In this document: one piece after another, positions 6,167 through 43,187 of the stretch | Numbering within the stretch: the first letter of the stretch is position 1 | Layout: every line of letters begins with the position of its first letter | Source of the DNA: Escherichia phage SM_A8 | Sequence record: PP920553.1 | DNA: 44,559 nt | Strand: one strand, 5' to 3' | The notes under the pieces: generated by a model | Databases searched by the model: none | Told to the model about the DNA's origin: nothing | The model's input: the letters and a program-made list of their open reading frames with translations, nothing else | Translations under genes and position numbers: made by a program

Positions 6167-6201
6167 TTTGTTTTCCTTCATATCTCTGTTGGTGTGCAAC
6201 C

Positions 6202-6231
6202 AATATAATGCAACCAACATACGCAATGCAA
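6202..6231 (-). promoter_or_regulatory. sigma70-like promoter for leftward two-gene insert
   Basis: minus-sense TTGCAT-N18-TATATT; overlaps two GCAACCAA 8-mers; the 21 nt from the -10 onward are identical to the promoter at 39991-40011. Confidence 0.45.
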
Positions 6232-6238
6232 GCGAATT

Positions 6239-6266
6239 TTGCGATTATTTTTATCGCTGATAATAT
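6239..6266 (+). promoter_or_regulatory. sigma70-like promoter upstream of scaffold/capsid genes
   Basis: TTGCGA-N16-TAATAT about 55 nt upstream of scaffold start. Confidence 0.4.
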
Positions 6267-6320
6267 TAAGGCGTGAAGTCAAGCGGGTGGCCCGCTTTGC
6301 CACAATCCCAGGGGGATAGC

Positions 6321-7022
6321 ATGAAACTTACTAAAGCAGAATATGACGCGTTGCCAGAAGGTATGAAGGCGCTTTTTGTTGCCGATGGCGATGGGTATAA
6401 ATCAACCTTCATGACCGCAGAAGAAGTACAGGCGGAAATCAAGGGTCTGAAAGAAAACAACGCTAAGCTGGTGAGCGAGAAGAAAGCAGAAGCCGAACGC
6501 CGCGCCGAAGCTGAGCGCCTTGCGAAAGAGAAAGAGGAAGCCGCCGCGCGCAAAAATGGCGACCTCGAAGCGATCGACAAGTCCTGGAAAGATAAGTTTG
6601 CGAAACACGAAGCAGATACATCGGGAAAAATCGAAGCCTACCGCAAGCAGATCCACGATCTAACCATCGGCAGCGCTGCCAAAGACCTGGCGTCGAAGCT
6701 GTTCGGTAAGAATGCGGGAATCATGCAACGCCACGTAATGGACCGCCTGACGCTGGAAGACGGCGAAGACGGCAGCTTGAAAGTGCGTGTCTTGCAGGAT
6801 GGCAAACCGTCCGCGCTGACTATGGAAGAGCTTGAAAAAGAGTTCCGTAATAACGCCGATTTTGCATCAGTCCTGGCTGGCACGCCAGCCGGTGGCGCGC
6901 CTAGCAAACCGACGCAGGTTGTCGAAGATGTGAAGTCTAAAATTACGATGGGCCATAGCTTCGGTATCACCGATCTCACCAAACAGGCCGGTGAAATCAT
7001 CGCTAAAATGGGTGACGAGTAA
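6321..7022 (+). CDS. scaffolding protein
   Basis: ATG 6321 with GGGGGA RBS (track ORF 6273 has an N-terminal extension); K/E/A-rich coiled-coil-like sequence; immediately upstream of capsid gene. Confidence 0.6.
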   Translation: MKLTKAEYDALPEGMKALFVADGDGYKSTFMTAEEVQAEIKGLKENNAKLVSEKKAEAERRAEAERLAKEKEEAAARKNGDLEAIDKSWKDKFAKHEADTSGKIEAYRKQIHDLTIGSAAKDLASKLFGKNAGIMQRHVMDRLTLEDGEDGSLKVRVLQDGKPSALTMEELEKEFRNNADFASVLAGTPAGGAPSKPTQVVEDVKSKITMGHSFGITDLTKQAGEIIAKMGDE

Positions 7023-7119
7023 GCAGATTGCCCGCGAAAGCGGGCAATTTTGCGAGCGCGTAAAACTAAGGTAACATTAATGCCACTGGGCGAATGCTCA
7101 CAACTCAAAGGATTTCGAT

Positions 7120-8220
7120 ATGTCTTTAACAGTGTTCCAGCGTAAACTCGTTACCGCGGTTACGCAAATGATCCCCGACAACCTGAACGTTTTCAACGCC
7201 GCCGCCAATGGCGCTGTTGTTCTCGGTACTGGTGAAGTGCTGAAGGATGTTGTAGAAAAAATGTCCGTAGGCTTGATCGCCAACCTTGTTACCGACCGTA
7301 ACGCCTACGCCCCTGTCGGCACTCCGGCAACCGCTAAAGTGCTGGCGCGTATGCTGACCAACTCCGTTAACCTATCCGCGAAAGTGGGTCCGGTAGCAAT
7401 CACGAAGGCTATGATGGCTAAGATCGAAACCAACGTTAACAGCGTTGCGGCTGAGATTGCGGCGCAGGCCACTCAAGCGATTATGCTGCATTACCTGAAA
7501 GCGGGTATCGGCGCAAGTAAAGCGGCGATCGAAAGCAACGCAGCGGCAAAATACACCCAACCTGCGCGCGTTGATGGCGTTGGTGGTCGTACCTTCCCGA
7601 CCCTGGCGGACTTCCCGCTGGCGGCGTCTAAGTTCGGCGATCAGGCGTCTTTGATTAAGTCCTGGTTTATGGACGGTGTTACCTGGGCAAACTTCATCGC
7701 ATACCAGGCGCTCCCTTCCGCTGAACAGGTATTCGCAATTGGCGATCTTCAGGTAATGGGTGATGGCCTGGGCCGTCGTTTCATTATCTCCGATGCCGCT
7801 GCCGATGCTATGGGCACGGGTAACATGCTGGGTCTGGTCCCTGGCGCGGTTGCCGTTACCACCAACGGCCTCGATATGCTGGCGCAGGAGAAAGGCGGTA
7901 ACGAGAACATCGAACGCTGGTGGCAGGGCGAGTTCGACTTCAACGTGGCTGTTAAAGGCTACCGTCTGAAGGCGTCCGCTCGTACACCGATCGAAGGCGT
8001 CCGCTCGTTCAAACTGGACGATATTACCACTTCCGCTAACTGGGAACTGGATCAGGGCCAGGTAGACAACGAACCGGCAACCGTTCAGGATGTTGGCGCG
8101 GCGGGTGATGGCGATACTAAAGGTCGTCGTAAGACCCAGGCCGCACAGGCAGTGCCGACCCGTCACATCAAGGAAACCGCTGGCGTACTGGTTACGCTGA
8201 CGGCGACTACCGCGTCTTAA
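7120..8220 (+). CDS. major capsid protein
   Basis: 366-aa ORF after scaffold, RBS AAGGA, followed by a strong intrinsic terminator as is typical for capsid genes. Confidence 0.7.
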   Translation: MSLTVFQRKLVTAVTQMIPDNLNVFNAAANGAVVLGTGEVLKDVVEKMSVGLIANLVTDRNAYAPVGTPATAKVLARMLTNSVNLSAKVGPVAITKAMMAKIETNVNSVAAEIAAQATQAIMLHYLKAGIGASKAAIESNAAAKYTQPARVDGVGGRTFPTLADFPLAASKFGDQASLIKSWFMDGVTWANFIAYQALPSAEQVFAIGDLQVMGDGLGRRFIISDAAADAMGTGNMLGLVPGAVAVTTNGLDMLAQEKGGNENIERWWQGEFDFNVAVKGYRLKASARTPIEGVRSFKLDDITTSANWELDQGQVDNEPATVQDVGAAGDGDTKGRRKTQAAQAVPTRHIKETAGVLVTLTATTAS

Positions 8221-8238
8221 CGGGCGCACATCCCAAAT

Positions 8239-8263
8239 GGGCGGGCTTATGCCCGCCTTTTTT
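8239..8263 (+). terminator. rho-independent terminator after capsid gene
   Basis: GGCGGGC-ttat-GCCCGCC followed by T6. Confidence 0.65.
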
Positions 8264-8278
8264 ATAGGAGTGAATCTA

Positions 8279-9219: not shown

Positions 9220-9220
9220 C

Positions 9221-11769: not shown

Positions 11770-11771
11770 TG

Positions 11772-12090
11772 AAGCGGGACAGGCGGGACGTCCCGTTTTG
11801 TCCCGCCTCTGTAAAACTGCATATCTACTCACTTCCACTGCATAAACTCAAAACGGGACAAGCGGGACGTCCCGTTTTGTCACGCCCTGTAAATATGCAT
11901 ACCTATGCAGATTTCGTGCATAAACCAAACGGGACAAAAAGCGGGACAAACAAGGGGCGGGACAAAGCGGGACAGCACCCCAGTCCCGCCAGTGCTGCCG
12001 CGGGGTTTAGCCGATCGGGACAGGCGGGACAAAGCCCAGTCTTTCAGACTAGACGGGGGTCAATGGCCCCCCTCGTCTGAGACTGAATAA
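11772..12090. repeat. GCGGGACA repeat array region, including 173-bp element copy A (11918-12090)
   Basis: at least 10 direct CGGGACA/CGGGACG copies plus inverted GTCCCGCC copies; two ~80-bp tandem units (11772-11917) then a 173-bp element ending in a GC-rich hairpin; colinear copy at 39640-39812. Confidence 0.7.
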
Positions 12091-12153: not shown

Positions 12154-14796
12154 ATGGCAGATCAGGCAGCAGGCATCACGCTAAAGGCTGATGTTGCACA
12201 AATCAGAACGGCAAATACTGTGCTGGACACATTTGCGCAGAAATCAGAGAACACAGAACAGAAAGTAAAGAAATTAAACGACACACTAGGCAAGTCGAAA
12301 AAGGTTACTGGCGACGCCGCGGGTGGAATGGAAAAGTTAGCGACTGAATCGCAGCGCGCCGCCGACGGCATGACGAAACAGGAGCGACTCGCCAGCCGAT
12401 TAGGCATGTCGACCAAAAACCTGGGATTTGCTTCACGGAACGCTGCATTCCAGTTACAGGATATTGCAGTAACGCTTGAGATGGGTATGCCGGTGCACCG
12501 CGTTATGCTTCAGCAGTTACCTCAGCTTACTGGGGCGTTTGGCGGACTGGGTAACACGCTGCGATATGTTGCTGGCTTCCTCGGTCCAGTTGGGATCGGC
12601 CTTGCTGCGGTAACGGCAACGTTAGGCGTGGGCGTAGCAATTACGTCCCGCGCAGAGAACCAGGTCGCAGCGCTTAACAAGACGCTGGCGCTGTCAGGTA
12701 ACATTTCCGGCCTCACCGCTAACCAGATCCTTGTGCTGTCGGAGAACGCCGAGCGTATGGGCGGGTCATTCAGTAAGACGCGTGACACAATCCAGGCGCT
12801 GGCAGCAGCGGGTGTGAAAGCGGGCGCTGACTTCGGCGCGCTGGCGAAAGTGGTGAATGACTTTGCGAAGGCGTCTAATCAGCCGATCTCTGACGTGGTT
12901 GAATCCATCTCAAAATTGTCGAACGACCCGGTCGGGGGACTGCGTGCGCTGGCGGATAAGTATCATGTTGTAACCGAAGCGCAGATCCAGCAGGTGCAAT
13001 CGCTTGTAGATATGGGGCGTGAAACGGACGCGGTTGCTCTGGCTAACAAAACCGCAGCTGCGTCGTTCTCCAGCATGACCAGTGAGATCAAGTCCAACAT
13101 GGGTACGCTCGAGCGGTCGATGAACGTCGTCACATCGGCAGCCAAATCCATGTGGGACGCCATCCTGGATGTAGGACGCGCGCAGTCATCGAATGAGTCC
13201 GAGATGAAAGCGCGTGAGTCCTTGCAGCGCATGACCACGGCTTACTATGCCGAGATGAGAGCGGTAAACGCTGCCGGTGGGGTGATGACCGAAGCGCAGA
13301 AAGCGCGTATTAACATGCTTTACAGCGAACTGGTCGCCCAGGAAAAGGTAGTGGCGTCGCTCACCCTGCGCAACCGTGCCGAGCGAGACAGCGCCCGCGC
13401 CGCGGATGAAGCCGCAAAGGCGAACGAGGAGGCAAACCGCACCGCCCGCGACCGCGCCGCGTTTGAGAAGGAGTACGCAACCAACGCGAAGCGGCGAGCC
13501 GACGAGATAGCCCGCCTCAATTTGCTGAAGAAGCGCGGTGTTATTAACGAGAAAGAACTAGCCGAGGCGGTGAAGCAGGTCAACGAGCGCTACAAAGACC
13601 CCGCACCAAAAAAGGCGGCGGCAGTTCGAGTAGATGCCGGGCTGAAAATGCTGGAGGTCGCGCGAAGCGAACTGGCACAGCTGCGAGAATCAGGCAAGCA
13701 GATCGAAGCCAACGCGTCGACGCAGACCCGATCGCAACGCGCTCAATCAGCACTTAACAAGCTGATCGCAGATCATGAACAGTTAATCGCAGCAAGCAAA
13801 GAAAGAGCGCTAACGGCAGCGGAAAAGCAGCAAATTGCGGGTTTCGAGGAGGTTAAATCGGTACGCGAGCAGATCGTCGAAGAAGCCAAATTGCTGGACG
13901 CGAAAGAGAAGCAGATCAAGGCACATGCCCAGGTCGAGACATTCATCAAGAACCAGAACGCCGAGCTAAAAGCCACCGCGGCGGGCTATGCGCTTTCCAC
14001 TCGCGAAGCGGCTAACCTGCGCGAAGAATTGCAGCTAATTGACCGCCTTCAGCGTGTCGGTGCTAACGATACCGATATCGACAAGGCGGTGTCTAAGCTG
14101 CGCGAAGTGCAGGAAGCACAGACCGGTGCTAACGCCTCGCTATGGGATGGCTTCAGCCGCGGGCTTAAGGATAGCGTTGATGAAATGGGTAACGGCTATA
14201 CGCAGATGACGTCACTCACAAAATTCACGTTCGGCGCTATGCAGGACACGATGAACGAGTTTTTCGAGACTGGCAAGCTGAACGCAAAAGATATGGTTAA
14301 GTCCATTCTGAGCGAATTAATAAAGCTGGCTACCTCGCAGGCGTTCAAGTCCATCGTTAGCGCTTTCGGTGGCGACGGCGGCAAAAACGGATTGTTCGGC
14401 GCTATCTTTTCCGGCCTCACTAAGAATGCGGACGGCGGAGCGTACGCAGGGGGCAATCTTGCGGCCTATTCGGGGCAAGTGGTAAGCCAGCCCACCTTTT
14501 TCAGTTATGGCGTCCAGGCGTTCGCTAAGGGCGCAGGATTGATGGGCGAGGCTGGTCCCGAGGCCATCATGCCGCTGAAGCGCGGGCCGGACGGGAAACT
14601 GGGCGTTGCCGCGTCTGGCGCAGGCGGTGGTATGGTCGTGACGACTAACGTTTACACGGGGACCGGTAAAACGGATACCAGTGTCAGCGGGCCGGATCCC
14701 CGTACCGCGCAGGCGTTCGGCAAGCAAATCACCGAGGCGGTGAAGGCCGAGATCGTGAAGGCGACGAAACCGGGTGGTGTACTTTACAAACGATGA
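12154..14796 (+). CDS. tail tape measure protein
   Basis: 880 aa, long A/E/K/Q-rich helical regions, Gly-rich C-terminal part; sits between chaperone and tip genes. Confidence 0.85.
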   Translation: MADQAAGITLKADVAQIRTANTVLDTFAQKSENTEQKVKKLNDTLGKSKKVTGDAAGGMEKLATESQRAADGMTKQERLASRLGMSTKNLGFASRNAAFQLQDIAVTLEMGMPVHRVMLQQLPQLTGAFGGLGNTLRYVAGFLGPVGIGLAAVTATLGVGVAITSRAENQVAALNKTLALSGNISGLTANQILVLSENAERMGGSFSKTRDTIQALAAAGVKAGADFGALAKVVNDFAKASNQPISDVVESISKLSNDPVGGLRALADKYHVVTEAQIQQVQSLVDMGRETDAVALANKTAAASFSSMTSEIKSNMGTLERSMNVVTSAAKSMWDAILDVGRAQSSNESEMKARESLQRMTTAYYAEMRAVNAAGGVMTEAQKARINMLYSELVAQEKVVASLTLRNRAERDSARAADEAAKANEEANRTARDRAAFEKEYATNAKRRADEIARLNLLKKRGVINEKELAEAVKQVNERYKDPAPKKAAAVRVDAGLKMLEVARSELAQLRESGKQIEANASTQTRSQRAQSALNKLIADHEQLIAASKERALTAAEKQQIAGFEEVKSVREQIVEEAKLLDAKEKQIKAHAQVETFIKNQNAELKATAAGYALSTREAANLREELQLIDRLQRVGANDTDIDKAVSKLREVQEAQTGANASLWDGFSRGLKDSVDEMGNGYTQMTSLTKFTFGAMQDTMNEFFETGKLNAKDMVKSILSELIKLATSQAFKSIVSAFGGDGGKNGLFGAIFSGLTKNADGGAYAGGNLAAYSGQVVSQPTFFSYGVQAFAKGAGLMGEAGPEAIMPLKRGPDGKLGVAASGAGGGMVVTTNVYTGTGKTDTSVSGPDPRTAQAFGKQITEAVKAEIVKATKPGGVLYKR

Positions 14797-16217: not shown

Positions 16218-16958
16218 ATGTTAACGAAAAAGGTTAAAAGCGATATAGCCGCACACGTCGCGGCGTGTCTGCCGGAAGAAGCCTGTGGCCTGGTTGTCAT
16301 GGTGGGTCGTAAGCAAGTGTTCGTCCCATGTCTGAACGTATTCGAAGACCCGACCGGCGTGCGCTCCCGCAAAGACGCTTTTACGATTAGTGATATGGCC
16401 TGGATGGATGCCGAGGATATGGGCGACGTCGTGCGCGTAGTCCACTCACACCCGGGTCAGCGCGAGTTAACCCCCTCACTGGGCGACGTTAACGGATGCA
16501 ACGGCAGCGGCGTAGTGTGGACCATCACTAACGAATATGGCGACTTTATTGAGATTGACCCGGAAGACCCGCCGCTGGTAGGCCGCCGATTTGTTCTCGG
16601 GGTTACTGACTGTTACGGCCTCGTCATGGCATGGCACAAAAAGCAGGGCGTAAACCTGCCAGACTTCCGCGTGCCGTATAACTGGTGGGAGACAGGTGAA
16701 AATCTGTATATGGATAACTGGTACGGCGCGGGCTTCAGGGAATGCGAGGAGAATACGCCGGGGGCGATGGTTATCATGCAGATCAGCGCGCCAGTGCCTA
16801 ACCATGCTGGGATATTCCTTCCGGGCAACCAACTACTACACCATATCTACGGCAGCCTGTCGAGCGTGATACCCTTCCGATCAGGATTTTTCCGGGACAA
16901 TGTGGTTAAATGGGTACGTCATAAAGACCTACCAGGGAATATAACAGAATGGCAATGA
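16218..16958 (+). CDS. tail assembly protein K-like (MPN/JAB + NlpC/P60 domains)
   Basis: HSHPG...SLGD JAB-type metal site and C...H NlpC/P60-like motif (VTDCYGLVMAWH). Confidence 0.7.
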   Translation: MLTKKVKSDIAAHVAACLPEEACGLVVMVGRKQVFVPCLNVFEDPTGVRSRKDAFTISDMAWMDAEDMGDVVRVVHSHPGQRELTPSLGDVNGCNGSGVVWTITNEYGDFIEIDPEDPPLVGRRFVLGVTDCYGLVMAWHKKQGVNLPDFRVPYNWWETGENLYMDNWYGAGFRECEENTPGAMVIMQISAPVPNHAGIFLPGNQLLHHIYGSLSSVIPFRSGFFRDNVVKWVRHKDLPGNITEWQ

Positions 16959-22236: not shown

Positions 22237-22267
22237 GGTATCATCCCCTATATTTGGTTGAGTTTTA

Positions 22268-22295
22268 ATATTACACCACTCAACCAGGATTGCAA
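22268..22295 (-). promoter_or_regulatory. sigma70-like promoter for the lipoprotein gene
   Basis: minus-sense TTGCAA-N16-TAATAT; the -35 is part of an 8-mer copy (22292-22299). Confidence 0.4.
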
Positions 22296-22316
22296 CCAAT
22301 TTACGAGGATTTAGCT

Positions 22317-25243: not shown

Positions 25244-25273
25244 ACTATAGTGCAACCAACCTGTTGGTTGCAA
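25244..25273 (-). promoter_or_regulatory. sigma70-like promoter overlapped by 22-bp inverted repeat TGCAACCAA-cctg-TTGGTTGCA (operator candidate)
   Basis: minus-sense TTGCAA-N18-TATAGT; perfect 9-bp palindromic arms at 25251-25259 and 25264-25272. Confidence 0.45.
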
Positions 25274-26523: not shown

Positions 26524-26552
26524 AATATAATGCAACCAATATGATTATGCAA
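26524..26552 (-). promoter_or_regulatory. sigma70-like promoter upstream of Dam gene
   Basis: minus-sense TTGCAT-N17-TATATT built from two GCAACCAA copies (26532-26539, 26549-26556). Confidence 0.4.
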
Positions 26553-26557
26553 CCAAT

Positions 26558-29009: not shown

Positions 29010-29013
29010 TTCT

Positions 29014-29449: not shown

Positions 29450-29489
29450 TTCTAAAATCCTCGGTAGTGCTATCCGGCACACTATACCG

Positions 29490-29768
29490 CTACGCGACCA
29501 ATTCAGCAACCAATAAATCACAGTCGGCTATGTTGTCGATAACGCGAACGTCAGCACCGCGGCGGGCCATTCGCTCGTGCTCACGTACCTGGTGCGGCTT
29601 CGGTTTTCCTCCGGGGCGCTTCACTTCGACGAACACTATTTTGCCGTTGATGATAATAATCAGGTCGGGCGCACCTGCGCGCCCCTCCCATGCCAGTTTT
29701 CGGCAGAATCCGCCTACCTCTTTCACCCGTCGCATCAGGTGATTTTGCACCTTGCCTTCTGGTGTCAT
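29490..29768 (-). CDS. VRR-NUC domain nuclease
   Basis: PD-(D/E)XK pattern: GAPDLIIII ... EVKRPGGK ... Q; ATGA-coupled to upstream HNH gene. Confidence 0.6.
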   Translation of the reverse strand: MTPEGKVQNHLMRRVKEVGGFCRKLAWEGRAGAPDLIIIINGKIVFVEVKRPGGKPKPHQVREHERMARRGADVRVIDNIADCDLLVAELVA

Positions 29769-30367: not shown

Positions 30368-30434
30368 ATACACCCCCGAAAAAGAAAACGCCAGACAATA
30401 TTGCCCGACGTTTCCGCTAAAAGCAACATTTCCG

Positions 30435-32893: not shown

Positions 32894-32951
32894 TTTTCAT
32901 TGTCCTATTAAAAAGCCCGCATTAAGCGGGCTTGAATAGTGGGCTTTGCCC

Positions 32952-33734: not shown

Positions 33735-33798
33735 TTTCCAATTCCTCATTTTCACATATATCGGGGTTATTATGAGCCACCCCGTTCGGCTTGGTTGC

Positions 33799-33827
33799 TA
33801 ATCTACTTGGTTGCGCCTGATCGGTCA
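33799..33827 (-). promoter_or_regulatory. sigma70-like promoter for SSB-like gene
   Basis: minus-sense TTGACC-N17-TAGATT with GCAACCAA copies in the spacer and just after the -10. Confidence 0.45.
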
Positions 33828-34067
33828 AGCATTTTCATTAAAAAGATTTCTGGTCACGTAGTTGGTAGCGTTCTCGATCCAGCTTAACGGCGGGCGGTCG
33901 ATGTTCTTCTCCACCCAGTCGACGGCAGCGTCACTATATCCGTTGTCAAGCCAGCGGGTCGGATGGCGAATCATCCACGCCACCATTAACACGCCTTGCA
34001 CGCAATGCAGGATAAAGCCCAGCGCTCCGAGCAAAAACATCAATAAGATTGCGAATACTTTATTCAT
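33825..34067 (-). CDS. small membrane protein
   Basis: 80 aa with N-terminal hydrophobic segment AILLMFLLGALGFILHCVQGVLMVAWM. Confidence 0.45.
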   Translation of the reverse strand: MNKVFAILLMFLLGALGFILHCVQGVLMVAWMIRHPTRWLDNGYSDAAVDWVEKNIDRPPLSWIENATNYVTRNLFNENA

Positions 34068-35920: not shown

Positions 35921-35930
35921 TGTCTCGTCC

Positions 35931-35960
35931 TCTAAAAAGAGGCCCGCTAATCTGCGGGCC
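35931..35960 (-). terminator. intrinsic terminator after first leftward early gene
   Basis: minus-sense GGCCCGCAGATTAGCGGGCC followed by TCTTTTT. Confidence 0.5.
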
Positions 35961-35968
35961 GGAATATA

Positions 35969-36484
35969 TTAATCTTCCAGTTCGAAATAGGTTTCGACGA
36001 TTTCTTTTAGCTCTTTGTGGAAGTCTTCGACGTCGTCATCTTCCAGCTTGGCGATTGATTTGATCTCGAACGATTCCAGCAGGTCGTCGAATTCGTCGTT
36101 CGCGTCATCATCATCACCGCCTGCAATAATAGCGGCATACTGCTTGATTTCGTCGCGCATTTCGACCAGCGGATCGGCATCTTTCTTACCTTTGCCTTTC
36201 GCCGGTGCTTTCTTAGCCTTAGCCGGTTTTTCGTCTTCGGCATCGTCGTCGTCATCTTCTACGACTTCTTTTTTAGCCTTACCTTTCGCCGGTGCTTTTT
36301 TAGATTTAGCCGGTTTTTCGTCTTCAGCTTCATCGTCGTCATCTTCGACAACTTCTTTTTTGGCCTTAGACGGCTTCTTGTCTTCCTGCTTACCAACGGC
36401 AGCGCCAACGGTTTCATAATGCTTTGCAATGGTTTCCAGTGCTACTACGCCGCGAGTGATCAGGTTTACGATTTGCTCAAACAT
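35969..36484 (-). CDS. acidic/lysine-rich repeat protein (first gene of leftward early operon)
   Basis: ATG 36484 with GGAGAT RBS; two 29-aa repeats (KKEVVEDDDDEAEDEKPAKSKKAPAKGKA) from an 87-bp tandem DNA repeat; poly-D C-terminal region. Confidence 0.55.
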   Translation of the reverse strand: MFEQIVNLITRGVVALETIAKHYETVGAAVGKQEDKKPSKAKKEVVEDDDDEAEDEKPAKSKKAPAKGKAKKEVVEDDDDDAEDEKPAKAKKAPAKGKGKKDADPLVEMRDEIKQYAAIIAGGDDDDANDEFDDLLESFEIKSIAKLEDDDVEDFHKELKEIVETYFELED

Positions 36485-36679
36485 GGTATATCTCCGATTG
36501 GTTAAGTTTAGGTGTCGGCAGTTAACTTCGTCGGTGGCCTTAACATATTGCCAGGTTACGCGTTCTCCCGTTCGGGTAGTGGACCTGGTTATATAATCAC
36601 GGTTGGGAATCCTGACACTTCGATCCGGCCCCTGCGTTGCCCCTCTCCAGTTTGCGTCCTGCATCCTGTCGACGGAGTG

Positions 36680-36708
36680 AATATTAGATTGGTTGCAGAA
36701 GGGAGTCA
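36680..36708 (-). promoter_or_regulatory. leftward early promoter (P2)
   Basis: minus-sense TTGACT-N17-TAATAT with a GCAACCAA copy in the spacer; about 190 nt upstream of first leftward gene. Confidence 0.5.
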
Positions 36709-36719
36709 ACAACTAATTT

Positions 36720-36825: not shown

Positions 36826-36854
36826 TTGACACCTTGTGGTTTTAGGTGTAGTTT
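36826..36854 (+). promoter_or_regulatory. rightward promoter for HTH gene and primase
   Basis: TTGACA-N17-TAGTTT about 30 nt upstream of ATG 36886; divergent from P1. Confidence 0.45.
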
Positions 36855-36885
36855 CATTGGTCATTAACCAACAGGAGACTGAATT

Positions 36886-37215
36886 ATGAATATCAAAGAA
36901 GCAATTGAAGTGTTATCTAATGCAATCCGCGGCGAAGCGGGTAAATCCTGGTATTACACAAATGCGGTGGATACTCTGTTATTTGAAGTGTCCAGATTAT
37001 CGCGTGCTGAGAAGGAGCTTACCGCGAAGCTAGAATTGCTCAACGGCACGGCAGCAAGCAAGCTGCAAAAACACAATGAAGAAATGGAAGAATACAAAAA
37101 ACAGGTTATCCGTCTACGTGAGGAAGGTAAATCCTGGGCGATGATCGCCGAGTTGACCGGAATTAATCAGAGCACAGTGCGCTCCTGGGTACGCAATAAT
37201 AAAACTTCAAAGTAA
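36886..37215 (+). CDS. HTH DNA-binding protein (putative transcriptional regulator)
   Basis: 109 aa; C-terminal helix-turn-helix KSWAMIAELTGINQSTVRSWVRN; first gene of rightward operon. Confidence 0.6.
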   Translation: MNIKEAIEVLSNAIRGEAGKSWYYTNAVDTLLFEVSRLSRAEKELTAKLELLNGTAASKLQKHNEEMEEYKKQVIRLREEGKSWAMIAELTGINQSTVRSWVRNNKTSK

Positions 37216-37225
37216 GGCAACGGCA

Positions 37226-39490: not shown

Positions 39491-39600
39491 TTTGTGCGCG
39501 CATTGGTTGCCGATATGGGAATTCCCATATCGCTAAAAGATTAAATTTTGCGCGCATTGGTTGCCATTTAGGGTGTTTTTATCCCGCCGCATTGGTTGCC
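39484..39600. repeat. iteron-like repeats and perfect 20-bp palindrome downstream of primase (origin-like region)
   Basis: three CGCATTGGTTGCC copies (39499-39511, 39553-39565, 39588-39600), inverted copy at 39872-39884; palindrome GATATGGGAATTCCCATATC at 39512-39531; AT-rich stretch 39601-39650. Confidence 0.5.
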
Positions 39601-39639
39601 GTGTAGTGTAAATATATTGAATAGTTATGCAGTTTTATT

Positions 39640-39812
39640 GCATAAAGTAAGCGGGACAAAAAGCGGGACAAACAAGGGGCGGGACAAAGCGGGACAGCAC
39701 CCCTGTCCCGCCACGGATGGCGCGGCTTCCAGAGGAGCGGGACAGGCGGGACAAACCCCAGTCTTTCAGACTAGACGGGGGTCAGTGGCCCCCCTCGTCT
39801 GAGACTGAATAA
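39640..39812. repeat. 173-bp repeat element copy B with GCGGGACA array and GC-rich hairpin
   Basis: colinear with 11918-12090, no indels; CGGGACA copies at identical offsets (12, 24, 40, 50, 98, 107); central ~26 nt diverged. Confidence 0.7.
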
Positions 39813-39967
39813 AATCCGGGGATTGCAAAATACACGGCAGCATGATGCTAAGTGCGGTCGTCGATGAACTAGGCAACCAATGCGGGTTGTATTATGCTGA
39901 GTGAAAAATGCGGTTTGCAGTTGCAGCAGATAGCGATCAACTTTTTCATGCGCGTGATTAATATTGG

Positions 39968-39996
39968 TTGCGTTCACCCCGGCACCATGCTATATT
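39968..39996 (+). promoter_or_regulatory. rightward early promoter
   Basis: TTGCGT-N17-TATATT; TTGGTTGC copies overlap the -35 and follow the -10; 21-mer TATATTGGTTGCACACCAACA matches the minus strand at 6187-6207. Confidence 0.5.
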
Positions 39997-40024
39997 GGTT
40001 GCACACCAACATGAGGACTGAACA

Positions 40025-40330
40025 ATGAGAGCACTAATCTGGAATTACACAATGGCGGTGGCAAAGCTGTACGAAGCGAAGCACACAAACGGCAACGCAG
40101 ACGACGCGCGCCAGGTTGTCATCCTGGCCCAGCAGGGAATCCTGGACGCGTTCGACGATATGTTTGCCAGCCTGGACGAACTGGAACCGCTGCGCGTGGC
40201 AATCTGCGAATATGCGATGGCATTTGCCCGTGAACGCCTGGCGTATCGCTTCGGGATCGGCGAGACGGCAGTGACAAACGTTGCCCGGATTAAAGCCCAG
40301 CGTGAGCTATTCGCCCAGCTTGCGAAATAA
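40025..40330 (+). CDS. hypothetical early protein
   Basis: 101-aa ORF with GAGGA RBS downstream of promoter. Confidence 0.5.
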   Translation: MRALIWNYTMAVAKLYEAKHTNGNADDARQVVILAQQGILDAFDDMFASLDELEPLRVAICEYAMAFARERLAYRFGIGETAVTNVARIKAQRELFAQLAK

Positions 40331-40339
40331 GAGGCCAAA

Positions 40340-40615
40340 ATGACCCGTAGGCGCGCAAAACAGCTTTCGTGGCATATTCCCCTGCATTGCATACGAATAT
40401 GGGCGGAGAATGCGGTTGAGGGTGAATCGGTATTCTGGTGCTATCGCGACGACGTAAAGCCGTTGACGCAGACTCGCTACTTGCACCAGTTCGCAGCGCA
40501 ACACGATTTCAGGGTGCGGACTTCCTTGCAACCAATGGGAATACGTATTACATTACGCCGGAAGCCCGCCGTTGAGCGGGTAGGCAAACACTGGAGACTG
40601 AGCAAATGTTCTTAG
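40340..40615 (+). CDS. hypothetical early protein
   Basis: 91-aa ORF. Confidence 0.45.
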   Translation: MTRRRAKQLSWHIPLHCIRIWAENAVEGESVFWCYRDDVKPLTQTRYLHQFAAQHDFRVRTSLQPMGIRITLRRKPAVERVGKHWRLSKCS

Positions 40616-40740
40616 ACGGAATATCGCAGGTGTTTATCGACCTGCATATGTGCGTACTTGACTACGAACAAAACGGCATCGCTACGGTATGCGATGGCGA
40701 CTATAAGACTGTTGACGAGATTGAGGAGACTGAGCAATGA
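40606..40740 (+). CDS. small acidic hypothetical protein
   Basis: 44-aa ORF with GGAG RBS, stop overlaps the next ATG (ATGA); not in ORF track. Confidence 0.35.
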   Translation: MFLDGISQVFIDLHMCVLDYEQNGIATVCDGDYKTVDEIEETEQ

Positions 40741-41291
40741 GATTACTATTCCGCCGCAAATCAGACGGGCGCATACTGAAGCCGATCCAGACCCTGGATT
40801 CCTACGTCCGCTTGCACCACGCGGCAAGCGATCGGGTATTCCGCGCATCGAAGGGCACATTGCCGCAGTTCTTCGAAGTCCTCACACACGATATTGAGCG
40901 CGGCGATGTGTTGCGTGATATTCGCGACGGGCAATTGTGGGTCGTGGAGCACACCTCCCAGCACGGCTTGCGGTTGAAGTCCGGTATCTTGTTGAAGGGG
41001 ATGACGTACTTCGGCCTCGTAAATTACGAGCGAGTGGGTCGCAAATACAGCCTTCGGGACCGCCAGCCTCATGAGCGCGTGGAGTTCCGCAAGTCGCAGC
41101 CCGCGTATGCCACTTACGACGCGAGCAAAGTGATGGAGCCGATCCGCCAGGCCACGCGAGAGATAGTCAATCGCTTTGATGCCGTGACGAATGCACAGCG
41201 CCATGCGCAGGAATACGGCGTTGGATTCATCCGGGTAGAACGAGACGGCAGCATGAAAGCCATCGACCCGCGCTCGGTGATTCTGAAATGA
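40737..41291 (+). CDS. hypothetical early protein
   Basis: 184-aa ORF, ATGA-coupled upstream and downstream. Confidence 0.5.
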   Translation: MRLLFRRKSDGRILKPIQTLDSYVRLHHAASDRVFRASKGTLPQFFEVLTHDIERGDVLRDIRDGQLWVVEHTSQHGLRLKSGILLKGMTYFGLVNYERVGRKYSLRDRQPHERVEFRKSQPAYATYDASKVMEPIRQATREIVNRFDAVTNAQRHAQEYGVGFIRVERDGSMKAIDPRSVILK

Positions 41292-41428
41292 GTGCGACGA
41301 TCCGTGATATGCTGATGCATAACCGCTTCGAGATAGGCGGTCGGGTATCTCGCAATTACTTCGTGGCGCGTGCATGGGCGCGCCATATTGGCAAACCGGA
41401 AGGGGCAATTCGATGCTACACGAAATGA
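41288..41428 (+). CDS. small hypothetical protein
   Basis: 46-aa ORF, ATGA-coupled on both sides; not in ORF track. Confidence 0.3.
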   Translation: MSATIRDMLMHNRFEIGGRVSRNYFVARAWARHIGKPEGAIRCYTK

Positions 41429-41700
41429 TATATTGGTTTGGTATGGCCAGCATGTTATGCCTGGTTACGGGAGTGCTTGGCGCAATATGGGTATTCCTGG
41501 TATGGCCCGCCGTGGAAGCCGCCAGCATTACCCGCATGACGTTAGAGATATACAAGCGCCGTGGAATCACGGAGCACCCGACCAGGGTGCGCATGTGGTG
41601 GCTGTGGTATCGCGATATGATAGGCGGGCGAACATTCGAAGCCATCCGGTCGGGTGGATGGGAGTGGAACGGCGTCGGCAAGTGGTCCATTTTCGATTAA
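41425..41700 (+). CDS. small membrane protein
   Basis: 91 aa; hydrophobic segment MLCLVTGVLGAIWVFLVWPAV; Trp-rich C-terminus. Confidence 0.4.
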   Translation: MIYWFGMASMLCLVTGVLGAIWVFLVWPAVEAASITRMTLEIYKRRGITEHPTRVRMWWLWYRDMIGGRTFEAIRSGGWEWNGVGKWSIFD

Positions 41701-41718
41701 TTATGCAAGCGTGATATA

Positions 41719-41752
41719 GTCCCAGTGAGATAAAACTTACTGGGACTTTTTT
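41719..41752 (+). terminator. intrinsic terminator abutting the holin start codon
   Basis: 8-bp stem GTCCCAGT / ACTGGGAC, 12-nt loop, T6, then ATG 41753. Confidence 0.55.
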
Positions 41753-42043
41753 ATGGATAAGCTAAACGAGTGGTTATTCGCCCTTGCGTGTCTTGCTGGC
41801 GGCTTCGTAGGCGCACGCATTCATGGCGAGGCAACGAAAGGGCCGTTGAACTTCGTTTTATATGTCGTAGTTGGCTTCCTGTGTGCCATATTTGGCGCAC
41901 CGGCTATTGCCGAGTGGGCTGGTTTGTCGGGGGAGCGCACTGTCGCCGGTTTTGGCTTCGTAACCGCAATCTTCTGGATGCCAATCGCCGACCGGATCAG
42001 GGAGACTATTGAGTCGTTCCGACTTCCGGGGGGTGCAAAATGA
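41753..42043 (+). CDS. holin-like membrane protein (three predicted TM segments)
   Basis: 96 aa with three hydrophobic segments and charged C-terminus; upstream of endolysin with overlapping starts. Confidence 0.45.
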   Translation: MDKLNEWLFALACLAGGFVGARIHGEATKGPLNFVLYVVVGFLCAIFGAPAIAEWAGLSGERTVAGFGFVTAIFWMPIADRIRETIESFRLPGGAK

Positions 42044-42285
42044 TTATCTCCGTCCTGTTGTTTGTTATCATCGGGGCTTCGTCCCTGTTTAACGTGTATG
42101 CGCCGTCCGTCCGGGATGGCATTTTCGGTCGGGTGCTGTATCTGTTAACGGCAATGGTCTGTATTATCGGATTGCTGCAAACAGGCGACGTATCGGATAC
42201 CACCTGGACCGCGTTAATCTGGCTGTTTGCATTGCGCACCCTGCGTAATGCTGTTTTGAATGGGGTAAAACATGCGATTCAGTGA
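42040..42285 (+). CDS. membrane protein (second holin or antiholin candidate)
   Basis: 81 aa, three hydrophobic segments; ATGA-coupled between holin-like gene and endolysin. Confidence 0.4.
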   Translation: MIISVLLFVIIGASSLFNVYAPSVRDGIFGRVLYLLTAMVCIIGLLQTGDVSDTTWTALIWLFALRTLRNAVLNGVKHAIQ

Positions 42286-42763
42286 CAACGGTCTACGATT
42301 TACGGCAGCATGGGAGCAATTCAGCCCAGTGCCGTATTTTGCGACTAAGAAAGAGCAGGCCCGCGGCCTGTATACCTGGGGCTATGGTCACACCGGCACT
42401 AATCCGCCGCGGAGCATTACCCGTGCGGAAGCACTGGAGCTACTCAAGCGCGACGTGGCGTATGCCGAGAACTGGGTAAACAAGTACGCACACCCGAGCA
42501 TCAACCAGGCGCAATTCGACGCGCTGGTGGACCTGGTTATCAATGCCGGTCCTGGTCCGATCATGCCGGACGACGTCGCCGGAGACTTCGACGATGCGAT
42601 CCGCCTGGGTGACTGGGCAAAGGTCCGTGCTACGCTGCCACAATTCCGCAAGCAAGGCGGGGCAGTGCTCAAGGGGCTTGTCCGTCGTGCAATCGGCAGG
42701 CAGGCACTATTTGATGGTAAGCAGTGGGACGTTGCCGAGAAAATCGGGCGAAACGCCGCATAA
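42272..42763 (+). CDS. endolysin (GH24 lysozyme-like)
   Basis: catalytic Glu context AAWEQF, GYGHTG, ITRAEALELLKRD, INQAQFDALVDLVINAG, GLVRRAIGRQALF match the P22/lambda lysozyme pattern. Confidence 0.8.
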   Translation: MRFSDNGLRFTAAWEQFSPVPYFATKKEQARGLYTWGYGHTGTNPPRSITRAEALELLKRDVAYAENWVNKYAHPSINQAQFDALVDLVINAGPGPIMPDDVAGDFDDAIRLGDWAKVRATLPQFRKQGGAVLKGLVRRAIGRQALFDGKQWDVAEKIGRNAA

Positions 42764-42779
42764 TACGAGGAGACACAGT

Positions 42780-43092
42780 ATGTTAAAAAGCATTCTTGAT
42801 CATAACGCCGACGCGCTCGCCGCGCTGGCTAAAACCGAAGACCCAGGCGCTCGCCGCGCTGGCTAAAACCGAAGACCCAGGCGCTCGCGCCATTATCGCG
42901 GACACTATCAGTCATGCTGGCGTATTTGACGCGAAGCTGCCTAGCCCGCCGCCACAGGCGCTCGCCGCGCTGGCTAAAACCGAAGACCCAGGCGCTCGCG
43001 CCATTATCGCGGACACTATCAGTCATGCTGGCGTATTTGACGCGAAGCTGCCTAGCCCGCCGCCACAGGAAGAATCTGACCCAGTGACGTAA
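42780..43092 (+). pseudogene. repeat-protein gene with apparent frameshift inside tandem repeats
   Basis: ATG 42780 with GAGGAG RBS reads 28 codons to TAA 42864-42866; the rest (two 111-bp repeat units ending at TAA 43090-43092) continues in the +1 frame; one 36-bp sub-repeat copy is 2 nt short. Confidence 0.4.
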
Positions 43093-43100
43093 ACAATCAA

Positions 43101-43123
43101 GCCCGGTTAATTCCGGGCTTTTT
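43101..43123 (+). terminator. rho-independent terminator
   Basis: GCCCGG-ttaatt-CCGGGC followed by T5. Confidence 0.6.
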
Positions 43124-43187
43124 ATTGCTTGACTCGCAACCAACACAGGGGCCATACTGCAACCAATCAACTGGAGGAGTAATCAAG

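What the first reader, a model, noticed from the sequence alone, without database searches (positions are those of the whole stretch)
6196..43166. Over-represented 8-mer TTGGTTGC/GCAACCAA concentrated at promoter-like sites
By eye, GCAACCAA starts at 6196, 6210, 22292, 25252, 26532, 26549, 29516, 39873, 40528, 43136, 43159, and TTGGTTGC at 25264, 33790, 33806, 36688, 39503, 39557, 39592, 39964, 39995. That is at least 20 copies against ~1.4 expected for an 8-mer on both strands of 44.6 kb. Most copies are intergenic, often paired, and overlap -35-like hexamers (TTGCAA, TTGCAT, TTGCGT), sit in the spacer, or lie just after the -10. This points to a phage promoter consensus or a binding site for a phage regulator; the HTH protein at 36886-37215 is one candidate.
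Basis: seen in the sequence. Interest (0 to 1): 0.7.

Follow-up and report, generated by a model that had tools for sequence, protein, structure and literature searches.

The report
Operator motif of a phage regulator
An exact 8-base word, GCAACCAA, sits on nearly every early and middle promoter of this E. coli phage (genus Dhillonvirus) and is most likely the docking site of a small phage DNA-binding protein that switches those promoters off; this is an ordinary kind of control, but it has not been described for this phage group.

Summary
GCAACCAA/TTGGTTGC occurs 22 times against about 1.9 expected, and none of 100 shuffles exceeded 6. The word is strict: one-mismatch variants and sub-words are not enriched.

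The window is a Dhillonvirus (HK578/SO-1-like E. coli siphovirus). Twenty copies keep their positions in JLBYU60, SO-1 and HK578 while the flanks drift. The exact word persists at higher density in diverged metagenomic relatives. It is absent from the sister groups Kagunavirus and Cornellvirus.

About 16 copies lie inside ten sigma-70-like promoters. They sit over the -35, in the spacer next to the -10, or across the start site, in either orientation. This fits an operator that blocks RNA polymerase, not a promoter element. Four more copies flank a repeat-rich, origin-like region just after the primase-helicase gene.

The best candidate binder is the 109-aa protein at 36886-37215. Its HTH half is nearly invariant, its N-terminus is hypervariable, and the family is confined to motif-bearing phages. 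Databases label it "transposase", "Gam" or "resolvase".

Binding and repression are inferred, not shown. I rate this a new member of a known kind, of moderate interest.

The parts
36886..37215 (+). Gene for the candidate regulator, 109 aa. It has a variable N-terminal helix, one long helix (residues 22-79) and a C-terminal helix-turn-helix (residues 84-108).
   Evidence: Pfam HTH_23 scores 29.3 bits (cut-off 24.6) and Sigma70_r4_2 scores 29.1 bits (cut-off 25.7). It matches phrog_9366. The AF2 model has pLDDT 84. Residues 49-106 are nearly invariant and residues 1-45 hypervariable (A1). The family is found only in Dhillonvirus records. K1G and VSiP have no homolog.
36826..36871 (+). The HTH gene's own promoter, TTGACA-17-TAGTTT (36826-36854), followed by the palindrome TTGGT-cattA-ACCAA (36857-36871). 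This is a degenerate site (TTAACCAA) at the place where diverged relatives carry a full GCAACCAA.
   Evidence: Sequence read. TTGGT-N5-ACCAA occurs 3 times against 0.04 expected. L006, L008 and L009 have GCAACCAA between the -10 and the ribosome-binding site of this gene.
36681..36709 (-). Main leftward early promoter, TTGACT-17-TAATAT, with GCAACCAA (36689-36696) in the spacer. It heads the replication/recombination operon.
   Evidence: The HK578 record annotates the orthologous stretch as a promoter. Relatives carry two tandem copies here, 9 bp apart.
33791..33828 (-). Promoter TTGACC-17-TAGATT, with GCAACCAA in the spacer (33807-33814) and across the start site (33791-33798). It lies upstream of the ssDNA-binding protein and DNA polymerase genes.
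   Evidence: Conserved in L001, L002 and L005 with changed flanks.
29481..29513 (-). Promoter TTGCTG-17-TATAGT. Its -35 is made by TTGGTTGC (29506-29513). A near-copy, GCGACCAA, lies at 29494. The promoter sits in the last codons of the VRR-NUC gene.
   Evidence: The same GCGACCAA plus GCAACCAA pair is present in L006.
26524..26556 (-). Promoter TTGCAT-17-TATATT upstream of the Dam methylase gene. Two copies (26532-26539, 26549-26556) lie over the -35 and next to the -10.
25244..25273 (-). Promoter TTGCAA-18-TATAGT, with an inverted pair (25252-25259 on +, 25264-25271 on -) covering the -35 and the spacer.
   Evidence: In JLBYU60 the same place holds two direct copies instead, so the word is kept and the hairpin is not.
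22267..22299 (-). Promoter TTGCAA-17-AATATT (read by eye as TTGCAA-16-TAATAT) for the leftward lipoprotein / superinfection-exclusion-like gene. TTGGTTGC (22292-22299) makes the -35.
   Evidence: Gene annotation taken from JLBYU60.
6196..6231 (-). Promoter scored as TTGCAT-18-TATATT (read by eye as TTGCAT-17-TTATAT) for the leftward genes 5852-6226 and 5047-5811 (Nmad5). Copies lie next to the -10 (6210-6217) and across the start site (6196-6203). A TATAAT also reads rightward, towards the scaffold gene.
39964..40002 (+). Promoter TTGCGT-17-TATATT for the rightward small genes starting at 40025. Copies lie over the -35 (39964-39971) and over the -10 and start site (39995-40002).
40526..40554 (+). 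Possible internal promoter TTGCAA-17-TACATT, with GCAACCAA (40528-40535) over the -35, inside ORF 40340-40615. Coding constraint could explain its conservation equally well.
43129..43166 (+). Promoter TTGACT-18-CATACT directly after a terminator (43099-43120) and upstream of the phosphoesterase gene. Copies lie in the spacer (43136-43143) and across the start site (43159-43166).
   Evidence: Kept in SO-1. HK578 keeps the first copy only (the second is GCGACCAA). The whole stretch is replaced in JLBYU60.
39499..39885 (.). Four copies in the extended form GGCAACCAATGCG: 39503, 39557 and 39592 in one orientation and 39873 inverted. They flank an AT-rich stretch and the GCGGGACA repeat array, directly after the primase-helicase stop codon (39490). 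No convincing promoter is present.
   Evidence: SO-1 annotates this stretch as repeat_region B. Relatives also have 2-4 copies right after the primase-helicase gene.
13477..13484 (+). Chance copy inside the tape-measure gene. Not part of the system.
   Evidence: It reads GCCACCAA in JLBYU60 and HK578.
16825..16832 (+). Copy inside a tail assembly gene with no promoter nearby. Probably a chance copy held by coding constraint.

Best explanation
GCAACCAA, with a weak preference for T after it and against A before it, is the operator of a Dhillonvirus-specific global transcription regulator. The regulator is most likely the 109-aa helix-turn-helix protein encoded at 36886-37215. This is the first gene of the rightward early operon, just ahead of the primase-helicase gene.

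Proposed course of events:
1. Host sigma-70 RNA polymerase fires the phage's near-consensus promoters on entry, including the regulator's own.
2. The regulator accumulates.
3. It binds single 8-10 bp asymmetric sites that lie on the -35, in the spacer next to the -10, or across the start site of about ten promoters.
This covers the leftward replication block, the rightward small-gene block, the phosphoesterase gene and two leftward accessory-gene units inside the structural region.

In diverged relatives the regulator's own gene also carries a full site, so it would regulate itself. In this window that site has decayed to a TTGGT-N5-ACCAA palindrome. A further cluster of sites beside the origin-like repeats after the primase-helicase gene may block read-through into that region or tie regulation to replication.

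What is shown: the enrichment, the strictness of the word, its conservation, its placement in promoters, and its co-occurrence with the HTH family. What is inferred: that the HTH protein is the binder, that the effect is repression, and the role of the cluster near the origin-like region.
For: Enrichment and strictness:
- 22 copies against 1.9 expected.
- One-mismatch variants and sub-words are not enriched.

The selection acts on the DNA word:
- Across the window's 22 sites, motif columns are 94-100% identical in JLBYU60, SO-1 and HK578. Flanking columns are typically 80-95% identical.
- At 25252/25264 the pair is inverted in three genomes and direct in JLBYU60, yet both words are kept.
- Metagenomic relatives whose HTH protein is only 61-72% identical keep the exact word: 13 copies in 20 kb, 9 in 6.1 kb and 13 in 10.9 kb. 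These include tandem copies 9 bp apart, as in TTGAC-GCAACCAA-c-GCAACCAA-tc-TAGTAT.
- Fifteen further HTH-bearing viral contigs carry 0.32-0.86 sites per kb, against 0.043 per kb by chance.

Promoter placement:
- 16 of 22 copies overlap a sigma-70-like promoter scoring at least 7.5 of 12. The mean best score is 7.6 near sites and 5.0 at random positions.
- Four of these promoters are also found by the independent scan. One is annotated as a promoter in the HK578 record.
- Offsets from the -35 start cluster at -4/+2, +13/14 and +27 to +30, in both orientations. This is what a steric repressor would give, not an activator or a polymerase recognition element.

Candidate binder:
- It is the only protein among the 20 small ORF products scanned that has a DNA-binding domain.
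- Its C-terminal 58 residues are nearly invariant while the N-terminus is hypervariable.
- A second allele class (HK578 type, about 44% identical overall) keeps the core SW..IAE.TGIN.ST[VI]R.W, and its genomes keep the same sites.
- The family occurs only in Dhillonvirus: 154 phage records and 24 protein clusters.
- K1G and VSiP lack both the protein and the motif (3 and 0 copies).
- It is the only early-region protein present in HK578, L006, L008 and L009 and absent from both outgroups.
- It has its own TTGACA-17-TAGTTT promoter.
Against: - There are no binding, footprint or transcript data, so the link between protein and site rests on co-occurrence. That co-occurrence is confounded by phylogeny: everything specific to Dhillonvirus co-occurs.
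- No relative was found in which the recognition helix and the motif change together, so there is no true covariation test.
- Several small proteins of unknown fold are not excluded as binders, for example the very basic product of 40340-40615.
- In five promoters the word itself supplies the -35-like TTGCNN in one fixed register. An activator or -35-substitute role would also produce this.
- The promoter assignments are consensus matches. Part of each score comes from the motif itself, and the window as a whole has no excess of promoter-like sites over shuffles.
- The four copies at 39503-39873 have no promoter, so simple occlusion does not explain them.
- In this window and in HK578 the regulator's own promoter lacks a full site.
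Confidence: 0.55

Rival explanations
1. The site recruits polymerase instead of blocking it. The HTH protein is weakly similar to sigma region 4. It would bind TTGGTTGC where that word replaces the -35 hexamer and activate middle promoters, in the manner of T4 MotA at MotA boxes. The copies near the -10 and start site would then be secondary or autoregulatory.
For: Five promoters carry TTGGTTGC in one register, so that TTGCNN is the -35 with a 16-18 bp spacer to a good -10: 22292, 26549, 29506, 39964 and, more weakly, 39592. Pfam Sigma70_r4_2 is above its cut-off. NCBIfam gives sub-threshold ECF sigma hits over the same residues.
Against: The same word also lies in the spacer of promoters that already have a near-consensus TTGACx -35 (36689, 33807, 43136). 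It also lies across the start site (6196, 33791, 39995, 43159). It occurs in both orientations at the same offsets. A bound protein at those positions should hinder polymerase. TTGCNN with TATAxT is already a usable sigma-70 promoter. The protein has no sigma region 2 or 3, nor any recognisable polymerase-binding part.
Confidence: 0.12
2. The word is bound by a host (Enterobacterales) DNA-binding protein that the phage exploits, not by a phage protein.
For: The word is invariant across phages of E. coli, Shigella and Sodalis and in metagenomic relatives. A conserved host factor would explain this. No direct evidence ties the phage HTH protein to the site.
Against: I know of no E. coli factor with this site (from memory; not tested). 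Kagunavirus K1G (E. coli) and Cornellvirus VSiP (Salmonella) have related replication modules but do not carry the word. The invariance is matched by the near-invariant DNA-binding half of the phage protein. A full-text search for the word returned only unrelated papers among those listed, mostly primers and constructs.
Confidence: 0.1
3. The word is primarily a replication iteron. The HTH protein would be an origin-binding initiator that loads the adjacent primase-helicase at the repeat region after its gene, and the promoter copies would be secondary autoregulatory sites, as with plasmid Rep proteins.
For: The HTH gene is 10 bp upstream of the primase-helicase gene. Every relative has 2-4 copies, in the extended form GGCAACCAAT, directly after the primase-helicase stop codon and next to an AT-rich stretch and other repeats. 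SO-1 annotates that stretch as a repeat region.
Against: Only 4 of the 20 functional-looking copies are there. Their number and spacing vary (54 and 35 bp; two copies in SO-1 and HK578). Sixteen copies lie on promoters spread over 37 kb. The denser GCGGGACA array is a better iteron candidate for the same region. This reading is compatible with the main explanation as a second function.
Confidence: 0.1
4. The word is not a protein-binding site. It would be a compositional, coding or RNA-structure by-product, or a Chi-like recombination signal.
For: Elsewhere the same word is common as the Gly-Asn-Gln codon triplet GGC-AAC-CAA in collagen-like phage genes. The pair at 25251-25272 can form a perfect hairpin.
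Against: Here 18 of 22 copies are non-coding. The hairpin is not conserved in JLBYU60, where the two words are direct repeats. The copies show no bias in orientation relative to transcription (8 versus 12), unlike Chi-type signals. Shuffles never reach the observed count. There are no Rfam matches.
Confidence: 0.03

Closest known systems
Phage P1 C1 repressor and its dispersed asymmetric 17-bp operators (from my own knowledge)
   Same: One phage-encoded repressor, many asymmetric operators scattered over the genome, single or paired, overlapping promoters of unrelated operons.
   Different: P1 is temperate and C1 is its immunity repressor. Here there is no integrase or lysogeny module, and the genus is described as lytic (abstracts listed). 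The site is 8-10 bp rather than 17. The proteins are unrelated.
Mycobacteriophage L5 gp71 and its 13-bp asymmetric 'stoperators' (from my own knowledge)
   Same: A strict asymmetric word, about 20-30 copies per genome, concentrated in short intergenic regions, bound by a small HTH protein. One copy sits at the main early promoter.
   Different: L5 stoperators are oriented with transcription and act on elongation. Here the orientation is mixed (8 versus 12) and most copies lie inside core promoters. L5 is temperate.
KorA and KorB global regulons of IncP plasmid RK2 (from my own knowledge)
   Same: Small HTH proteins from the element's own backbone bind one operator word at many promoters and coordinate replication, maintenance and transfer genes. 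KorA, of about 100 aa, sits at the -10.
   Different: Kor operators are palindromes bound by dimers. Here the sites are asymmetric with variable spacing. The setting is a plasmid, not a lytic phage.
Lambda Cro (from my own knowledge)
   Same: An early-made small HTH protein that turns down the early promoters during lytic growth.
   Different: Cro binds three or so palindromic operators at two promoters. Here about 20 asymmetric sites lie at about ten promoters. There is no sequence similarity.
T4 MotA boxes at middle promoters (from my own knowledge)
   Same: A phage-specific word replaces or overlaps the -35 region of many phage promoters.
   Different: MotA boxes have a fixed position (about -30) and orientation, and they activate. 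Here position and orientation vary, and many host promoters already have a good -35.

Membership tests
Dispersed operator regulon of a phage-encoded HTH regulator (P1 C1 / L5 gp71 type) | One short word strongly over-represented in the genome and concentrated in non-coding DNA | tested here: met
   22 copies against 1.9 expected. 18 of 22 are intergenic by my reading. 10 of 19 fall in the 6.3% unannotated DNA of JLBYU60, P = 5e-8.
Dispersed operator regulon of a phage-encoded HTH regulator (P1 C1 / L5 gp71 type) | Sites overlap promoters | tested here: met
   16 of 22 copies overlap sigma-70-like promoters, by consensus matching only. One is annotated as a promoter in the HK578 record. No transcript data.
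Dispersed operator regulon of a phage-encoded HTH regulator (P1 C1 / L5 gp71 type) | Sites conserved as a word while surrounding DNA diverges | tested here: met
   including a change of pair orientation with both words kept.
Dispersed operator regulon of a phage-encoded HTH regulator (P1 C1 / L5 gp71 type) | A cognate phage-encoded DNA-binding protein binds the word | not testable with these tools
   Only co-occurrence and conservation of the HTH are available. Needs EMSA, footprinting or ChIP.
Dispersed operator regulon of a phage-encoded HTH regulator (P1 C1 / L5 gp71 type) | The regulator is the immunity repressor of a temperate phage | tested here: not met
   No integrase or lysogeny module in the window or in annotated relatives. 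The genus is reported as lytic (abstracts). The system therefore works like these regulons but is not a lysogeny system.
L5-type stoperators | Sites uniformly oriented with the direction of transcription | tested here: not met
   8 copies read GCAACCAA and 12 read TTGGTTGC in the local direction of transcription.
Core promoter element (part of a phage promoter consensus) | Fixed position and orientation relative to the -10 and -35 | tested here: not met
   Offsets of -4, +2, +7, +13/14 and +27 to +30 from the -35 start, in both orientations. Four copies have no promoter.
Replication-origin iterons | Copies clustered at one locus next to the initiator gene and an AT-rich stretch | tested here: inconclusive
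   Four copies fit this, at 39503-39880 after the primase-helicase gene. The other 16 are dispersed on promoters.
Chi-like recombination octamer | Strand-biased copies spread through coding DNA | tested here: not met
   Mixed orientation, almost all non-coding.
Pfam HTH_23 / Sigma70_r4_2 helix-turn-helix (for the protein at 36886-37215) | Score above the curated gathering cut-off | tested here: met
   29.3 bits against 24.6, and 29.1 bits against 25.7. The AF2 model shows the HTH at residues 84-108.
Transposase / resolvase / Gam nuclease inhibitor (database names for the protein) | A catalytic (DDE or serine recombinase) domain, or similarity to Gam | tested here: not met
   The protein is 109 aa and only the HTH matches transposase or resolvase models, all below their cut-offs. 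Foldseek aligns only the HTH, or a long helix plus HTH, at E values of 0.4 or worse. No Gam family hit.
Full sigma factor | Regions 2 and 4 both present | tested here: not met
   Only residues 41-103 match region-4 parts of ECF sigma models, far below cut-off. The model has no region-2-like domain.

The most novel reading that the evidence does not exclude
The small HTH protein is not a plain repressor but a sigma-region-4-like switch with two jobs. At promoters where TTGGTTGC stands in for the -35 it would recruit or redirect host polymerase. At consensus early promoters it would block polymerase. Through the site cluster beside the origin-like repeats it would also tie this switch to loading of the neighbouring primase-helicase. 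Its hypervariable N-terminus would be the part that contacts changing partners, either polymerase or host defences.
Probability: 0.1. Interest if true: 0.7.

Novelty: new member of a known kind. Interest (0 to 1): 0.45.

Why it matters
Dhillonviruses are common, easily grown E. coli phages. More than 150 genomes are deposited, they are part of the BASEL reference collection, and they are used in defence-system and therapy work. Their gene regulation has not been described.

This analysis gives a concrete, testable regulatory map: about ten promoters, one 8-bp operator and one candidate regulator. It corrects a widespread misannotation of that protein as 'transposase', 'resolvase' or 'Gam-like nuclease inhibitor'. 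A strict 8-bp operator with a 109-aa binder would also be a compact, orthogonal repressor-operator pair for phage engineering. Conceptually it is a familiar kind of circuit, so the gain is in annotation and tractability, not a new principle.

Tried and rejected
- Scan of viral contigs for the tandem form GCAACCAANGCAACCAA. It returned 120 loci, of which only one (L023) carries the HTH protein. The seven highest-count loci I read are coding repeats, six of them collagen-like Gly-Asn-Gln (GGC-AAC-CAA) repeats. The scan was uninformative for this question.
- Search for diverged HTH relatives with a changed recognition helix, to test covariation. The search for related loci returned only close relatives. 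The HK578-type allele keeps the HTH core and the same motif. No covariation test was possible.
- Looked for an analogous dispersed word in K1G and VSiP. None was found; there are only local iterons and a few ACTATAATAG palindromes.
- RNA explanations. There are no Rfam hits and no tRNAs, and the hairpin at 25251-25272 is not conserved.
- Structure and sequence searches for a characterised homolog of the HTH protein. PDB sequence search found nothing relevant. Foldseek against PDB and BFVD gave only generic HTH matches. NCBIfam hits were all below cut-off.
- Literature. Searches for the word itself, for Dhillonvirus with promoter or transcriptome, and for genome papers on HK578, SSL-2009a, YD-2008.s, EE09 and vB_EcoS-B2 found no description of the motif or of the protein's function.
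- PdhR/GntR-type boxes (ATTGGT-N3-ACCAAT), considered from memory. No such palindromes are present.

Full report
**What the window is.** The 44.6-kb window is a near-complete genome of a Dhillonvirus, an HK578/SO-1-like E. coli siphovirus. Its right-hand 14 kb is 92-94% identical to more than 100 deposited phages. The gene order matches the annotated relatives JLBYU60, SO-1 and HK578:
- a rightward structural block (23-24032);
- a leftward replication/recombination block (24059-36712);
- a rightward block (36886-44472) with a small HTH gene, the primase-helicase gene, small genes, lysis genes and a phosphoesterase gene.

No integrase or lysogeny genes are annotated. The genus is described as lytic (abstracts listed).

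**The observation.** GCAACCAA/TTGGTTGC occurs 22 times. Dinucleotide-preserving shuffles give 1.89 (maximum 6), and a second-order Markov model gives 2.2.

The signal belongs to the whole 8-mer:
- One-mismatch variants are at background: 38 against about 42.
- 22 of the 24 CAACCAA and 22 of the 25 GCAACCA are inside the motif.
- The cores AACCAA and ACCAA are not enriched outside it.

The flanks add only a preference for T after the word and against A before it. It is among the most over-represented 8-mers of the genome. The other top words (ACGGCAAC and similar) are also frequent in sister-group phages and look like coding-sequence words.

**Conservation.** JLBYU60, SO-1 and HK578 carry 19, 21 and 19 copies at the same places. 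I aligned the window's 22 sites to these genomes without requiring a match. The eight motif columns are 94-100% identical, while flanking columns are typically 80-95% identical.
- The copy at 13477 is not conserved, so it is a chance copy. Two chance copies are what the background predicts.
- At 25252/25264 three genomes have an inverted pair and JLBYU60 has a direct pair. The word is kept and the arrangement, including a possible hairpin, is not. This points to selection on a DNA word read by a protein, not on an RNA structure.
- Three metagenomic relatives have an HTH protein only 61-72% identical and replication proteins 65-85% identical to the window's. They keep the exact word at higher density: 13 copies in 20 kb, 9 in 6.1 kb and 13 in 10.9 kb.
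- Fifteen further viral contigs that encode the HTH protein have 0.32-0.86 copies per kb, against 0.043 per kb by chance.
- The sister groups with related replication genes do not carry it: Kagunavirus K1G has 3 copies and Cornellvirus VSiP has 0. I found no analogous dispersed word in them.

**Where the copies sit.** By my reading of the gene map, 18 of 22 copies are intergenic. In JLBYU60's independent and rather generous annotation, 10 of 19 copies fall in the 6.3% of DNA that is unannotated (P = 5e-8).

Sixteen copies overlap ten sigma-70-like promoters that point at the neighbouring genes. Four of these promoters are also picked up by the tool's stricter scan. The HK578 record annotates the ortholog of one of them as a promoter. 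The ten promoters are:

| Promoter | Strand | Hexamers |
|---|---|---|
| 36709-36681 | - | TTGACT-17-TAATAT |
| 33828-33800 | - | TTGACC-17-TAGATT |
| 29509-29481 | - | TTGCTG-17-TATAGT |
| 26552-26524 | - | TTGCAT-17-TATATT |
| 25273-25244 | - | TTGCAA-18-TATAGT |
| 22295-22267 | - | TTGCAA-17-AATATT |
| 6231-6202 | - | TTGCAT-18-TATATT |
| 39968-39996 | + | TTGCGT-17-TATATT |
| 40526-40554 | + | TTGCAA-17-TACATT |
| 43129-43158 | + | TTGACT-18-CATACT |

Measured from the first base of the -35 hexamer, the motif starts at one of these offsets:
- -4 or +2, on the -35 (seven copies);
- +7, just past the -35 (one copy, 43136);
- +13/14, in the spacer abutting the -10 (five copies);
- +27 to +30, across the discriminator and start site (four copies).

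Each of the three multi-copy classes includes copies in both orientations. The best promoter score near motif copies averages 7.6 of 12, against 5.0 at random positions.

Three caveats apply. Part of each score comes from the motif itself, since TTGC is -35-like. The promoters are consensus matches without transcript evidence. The window as a whole has no excess of promoter-like sites over shuffles.

**What this placement implies.** A polymerase recognition element or an activator site would hold one position and one orientation. This word does neither. It is found in the spacer and on the start site even of promoters that already have a near-consensus TTGACx -35. In relatives, two copies 9 bp apart fill the whole spacer of the main leftward promoter. 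These are positions from which a bound protein excludes polymerase. I therefore read the word as a repressor operator. That is inference from geometry.

The units under this control are:
- the whole leftward replication block, in at least five segments;
- the rightward small-gene block;
- the phosphoesterase gene;
- two leftward accessory units embedded in the structural region: the Nmad5-domain gene pair at 5047-6226, and the lipoprotein / superinfection-exclusion-like gene at 22015-22233.

No copy precedes the terminase or the other structural operons in the rightward direction. The possible exception is the ambiguous, symmetric -10 at 6202-6209.

**The copies without a promoter.** Four copies share the longer form GGCAACCAATGCG: 39503, 39557 and 39592 in one orientation and 39873 inverted. 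They bracket an AT-rich stretch and a second, unrelated repeat array directly after the primase-helicase stop codon. SO-1's record calls this stretch 'repeat region B'. Every relative has 2-4 copies at this spot. They may stop read-through from the primase-helicase gene, or link the regulator to an origin. I could not decide between these.

**The candidate binder.** I scanned 20 small ORF products against Pfam. Only the product of 36886-37215 has a DNA-binding domain. HTH_23 and Sigma70_r4_2 both score above their cut-offs, over residues 65-105. The AF2 model (pLDDT 84) shows a short helix, one long helix (residues 22-79) and a C-terminal helix-turn-helix. Structure and sequence searches return only generic HTH matches: resolvase, IS21/IS630 transposase and LuxR/GerE-type DNA-binding domains, all weak.

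The database names 'transposase', 'resolvase' and 'Gam-like nuclease inhibitor' rest on that HTH alone. No catalytic domain is present.

Several observations link the protein to the motif:
- Residues 49-106 are almost invariant across 13 family members, while residues 1-45 are hypervariable.
- A second allele class (HK578 type, 142-169 aa, about 44% identical overall) still keeps SW..IAE.TGIN.ST[VI]R.W. Its genomes keep the same sites.
- The family is confined to Dhillonvirus-like genomes: 154 phage records and 24 protein clusters.
- K1G and VSiP lack it.
- It is the only early-region protein present in HK578 and all three diverged relatives and absent from both outgroups.
- It has a consensus early promoter of its own, TTGACA-17-TAGTTT.
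- In the diverged relatives a full GCAACCAA lies between that promoter's -10 and the ribosome-binding site. In this window the same place holds TTGGT-cattA-ACCAA. The arrangement TTGGT-N5-ACCAA occurs three times in the window against 0.04 expected.

All of this is co-occurrence, and it is confounded by shared descent. No relative with a changed helix and a changed word was found, so there is no covariation test.

**Rivals.**
- An activating or -35-substituting role is suggested by the fixed register of TTGGTTGC at five -35 positions and by the sigma-region-4 similarity. It does not explain the spacer and start-site copies.
- A host factor cannot be excluded. None is known to me, and related phages of the same hosts lack the word.
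- A primary iteron role fits only four copies.
- Compositional, coding, RNA-structure or Chi-like explanations fail on location, orientation and conservation.

**Comparison with known systems.** In the way it seems to work, this resembles the dispersed asymmetric operators of P1 C1 and L5 gp71, the KorA/KorB regulons of IncP plasmids and, in timing, lambda Cro. It is not a member of any of those families:
- The protein is unrelated to theirs.
- The phage is not temperate.
- The orientation rule of L5 stoperators is not met.
- The sites are not palindromes.

I found no paper describing the motif or the protein's function.

**Verdict.** The 'regulator binding site' reading is well supported by comparative evidence, and the 'promoter consensus' reading is not. 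The HTH protein is the best candidate binder, and repression is the most likely effect; both are untested. This is a new member of a known kind of system, of moderate interest, and easy to test.

Noticed in passing
window 11770-12035 and 39644-39755 (hairpins at 12038-12090 and 39760-39812): A second, independent repeat system. GCGGGACA, often as (A/G)GCGGGACAA, occurs 14 times against 2.1 expected. Thirteen of the copies lie in two non-coding blocks 28 kb apart, and each block ends in the same long GC-rich hairpin. The remaining copy (29253) is in a terminator-like hairpin. SO-1 annotates the blocks as repeat regions A and B. The arrays are present in the E. coli Dhillonviruses and in L008, but absent from L006 and L009 (which keep GCAACCAA) and from K1G and VSiP. 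The layout resembles the ori/crr octamer arrays bound by the P4 alpha primase-helicase (from memory), so these may be origins or binding arrays for the primase-helicase.
   Followed up: partly
window 36886-37020 (residues 1-45 of the HTH protein): The N-terminal 45 residues are hypervariable between otherwise 92-99% identical phages. There are at least two unalignable allele classes (window/SO-1 type of 109 aa, HK578 type of 142-169 aa), while the C-terminal half is nearly invariant. This suggests module swapping or diversifying selection on a partner-contacting part.
   Followed up: partly
window 39479-39565: A 54-bp tandem duplication (33 nt aligned at 91%) begins inside the last codons of the primase-helicase gene and carries one GCAACCAA copy with it. 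The window and JLBYU60 therefore have three copies here, and SO-1 and HK578 have two.
   Followed up: partly
window 44493-44530: A strong terminator (44493-44513) is followed at once by TTATAAT with no recognisable -35 and no GCAACCAA, just upstream of the small terminase gene across the window's ends. This may be a -35-less late promoter that needs a different factor.
   Followed up: no
window 26419-26557: The window and HK578 lack a gene of about 150 aa (JLBYU60 gp33, labelled 'DNA ligase' in SO-1). In those phages it sits between the operator-bearing promoter and the Dam methylase gene. This is a simple gene presence/absence difference next to a regulated promoter.
   Followed up: no
JLBYU60 (L001) region orthologous to window 43125-43170: JLBYU60 has replaced the promoter stretch upstream of the phosphoesterase gene and lost both GCAACCAA copies there. 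HK578 keeps only the first copy (the second reads GCGACCAA). Control of this unit appears to be dispensable.
   Followed up: partly
whole window: The words ACGGCAAC, ACGGCAGC and CGCTGCCG occur 25-29 times each and are equally frequent in K1G and VSiP. They look like codon-pair words of coding DNA, not signals. The cores ACCAA and AACCAA are less frequent outside the motif than a Markov model expects (62 against about 100, and 11 against about 26). This may reflect avoidance of partial sites or just codon usage.
   Followed up: no
window 40340-40615: This ORF encodes a very basic 91-aa protein with no family match beyond a function-unknown PHROG family, and it contains one conserved GCAACCAA (40528) in its coding sequence. 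It is an unexcluded alternative DNA-binding candidate.
   Followed up: no
window 5047-5811: A leftward gene inside the structural block encodes an Nmad5 (nucleotide modification associated domain 5) protein (Pfam E = 2.8e-55). It is absent from HK578, K1G and VSiP. It is an accessory gene under one of the operator-bearing promoters.
   Followed up: no
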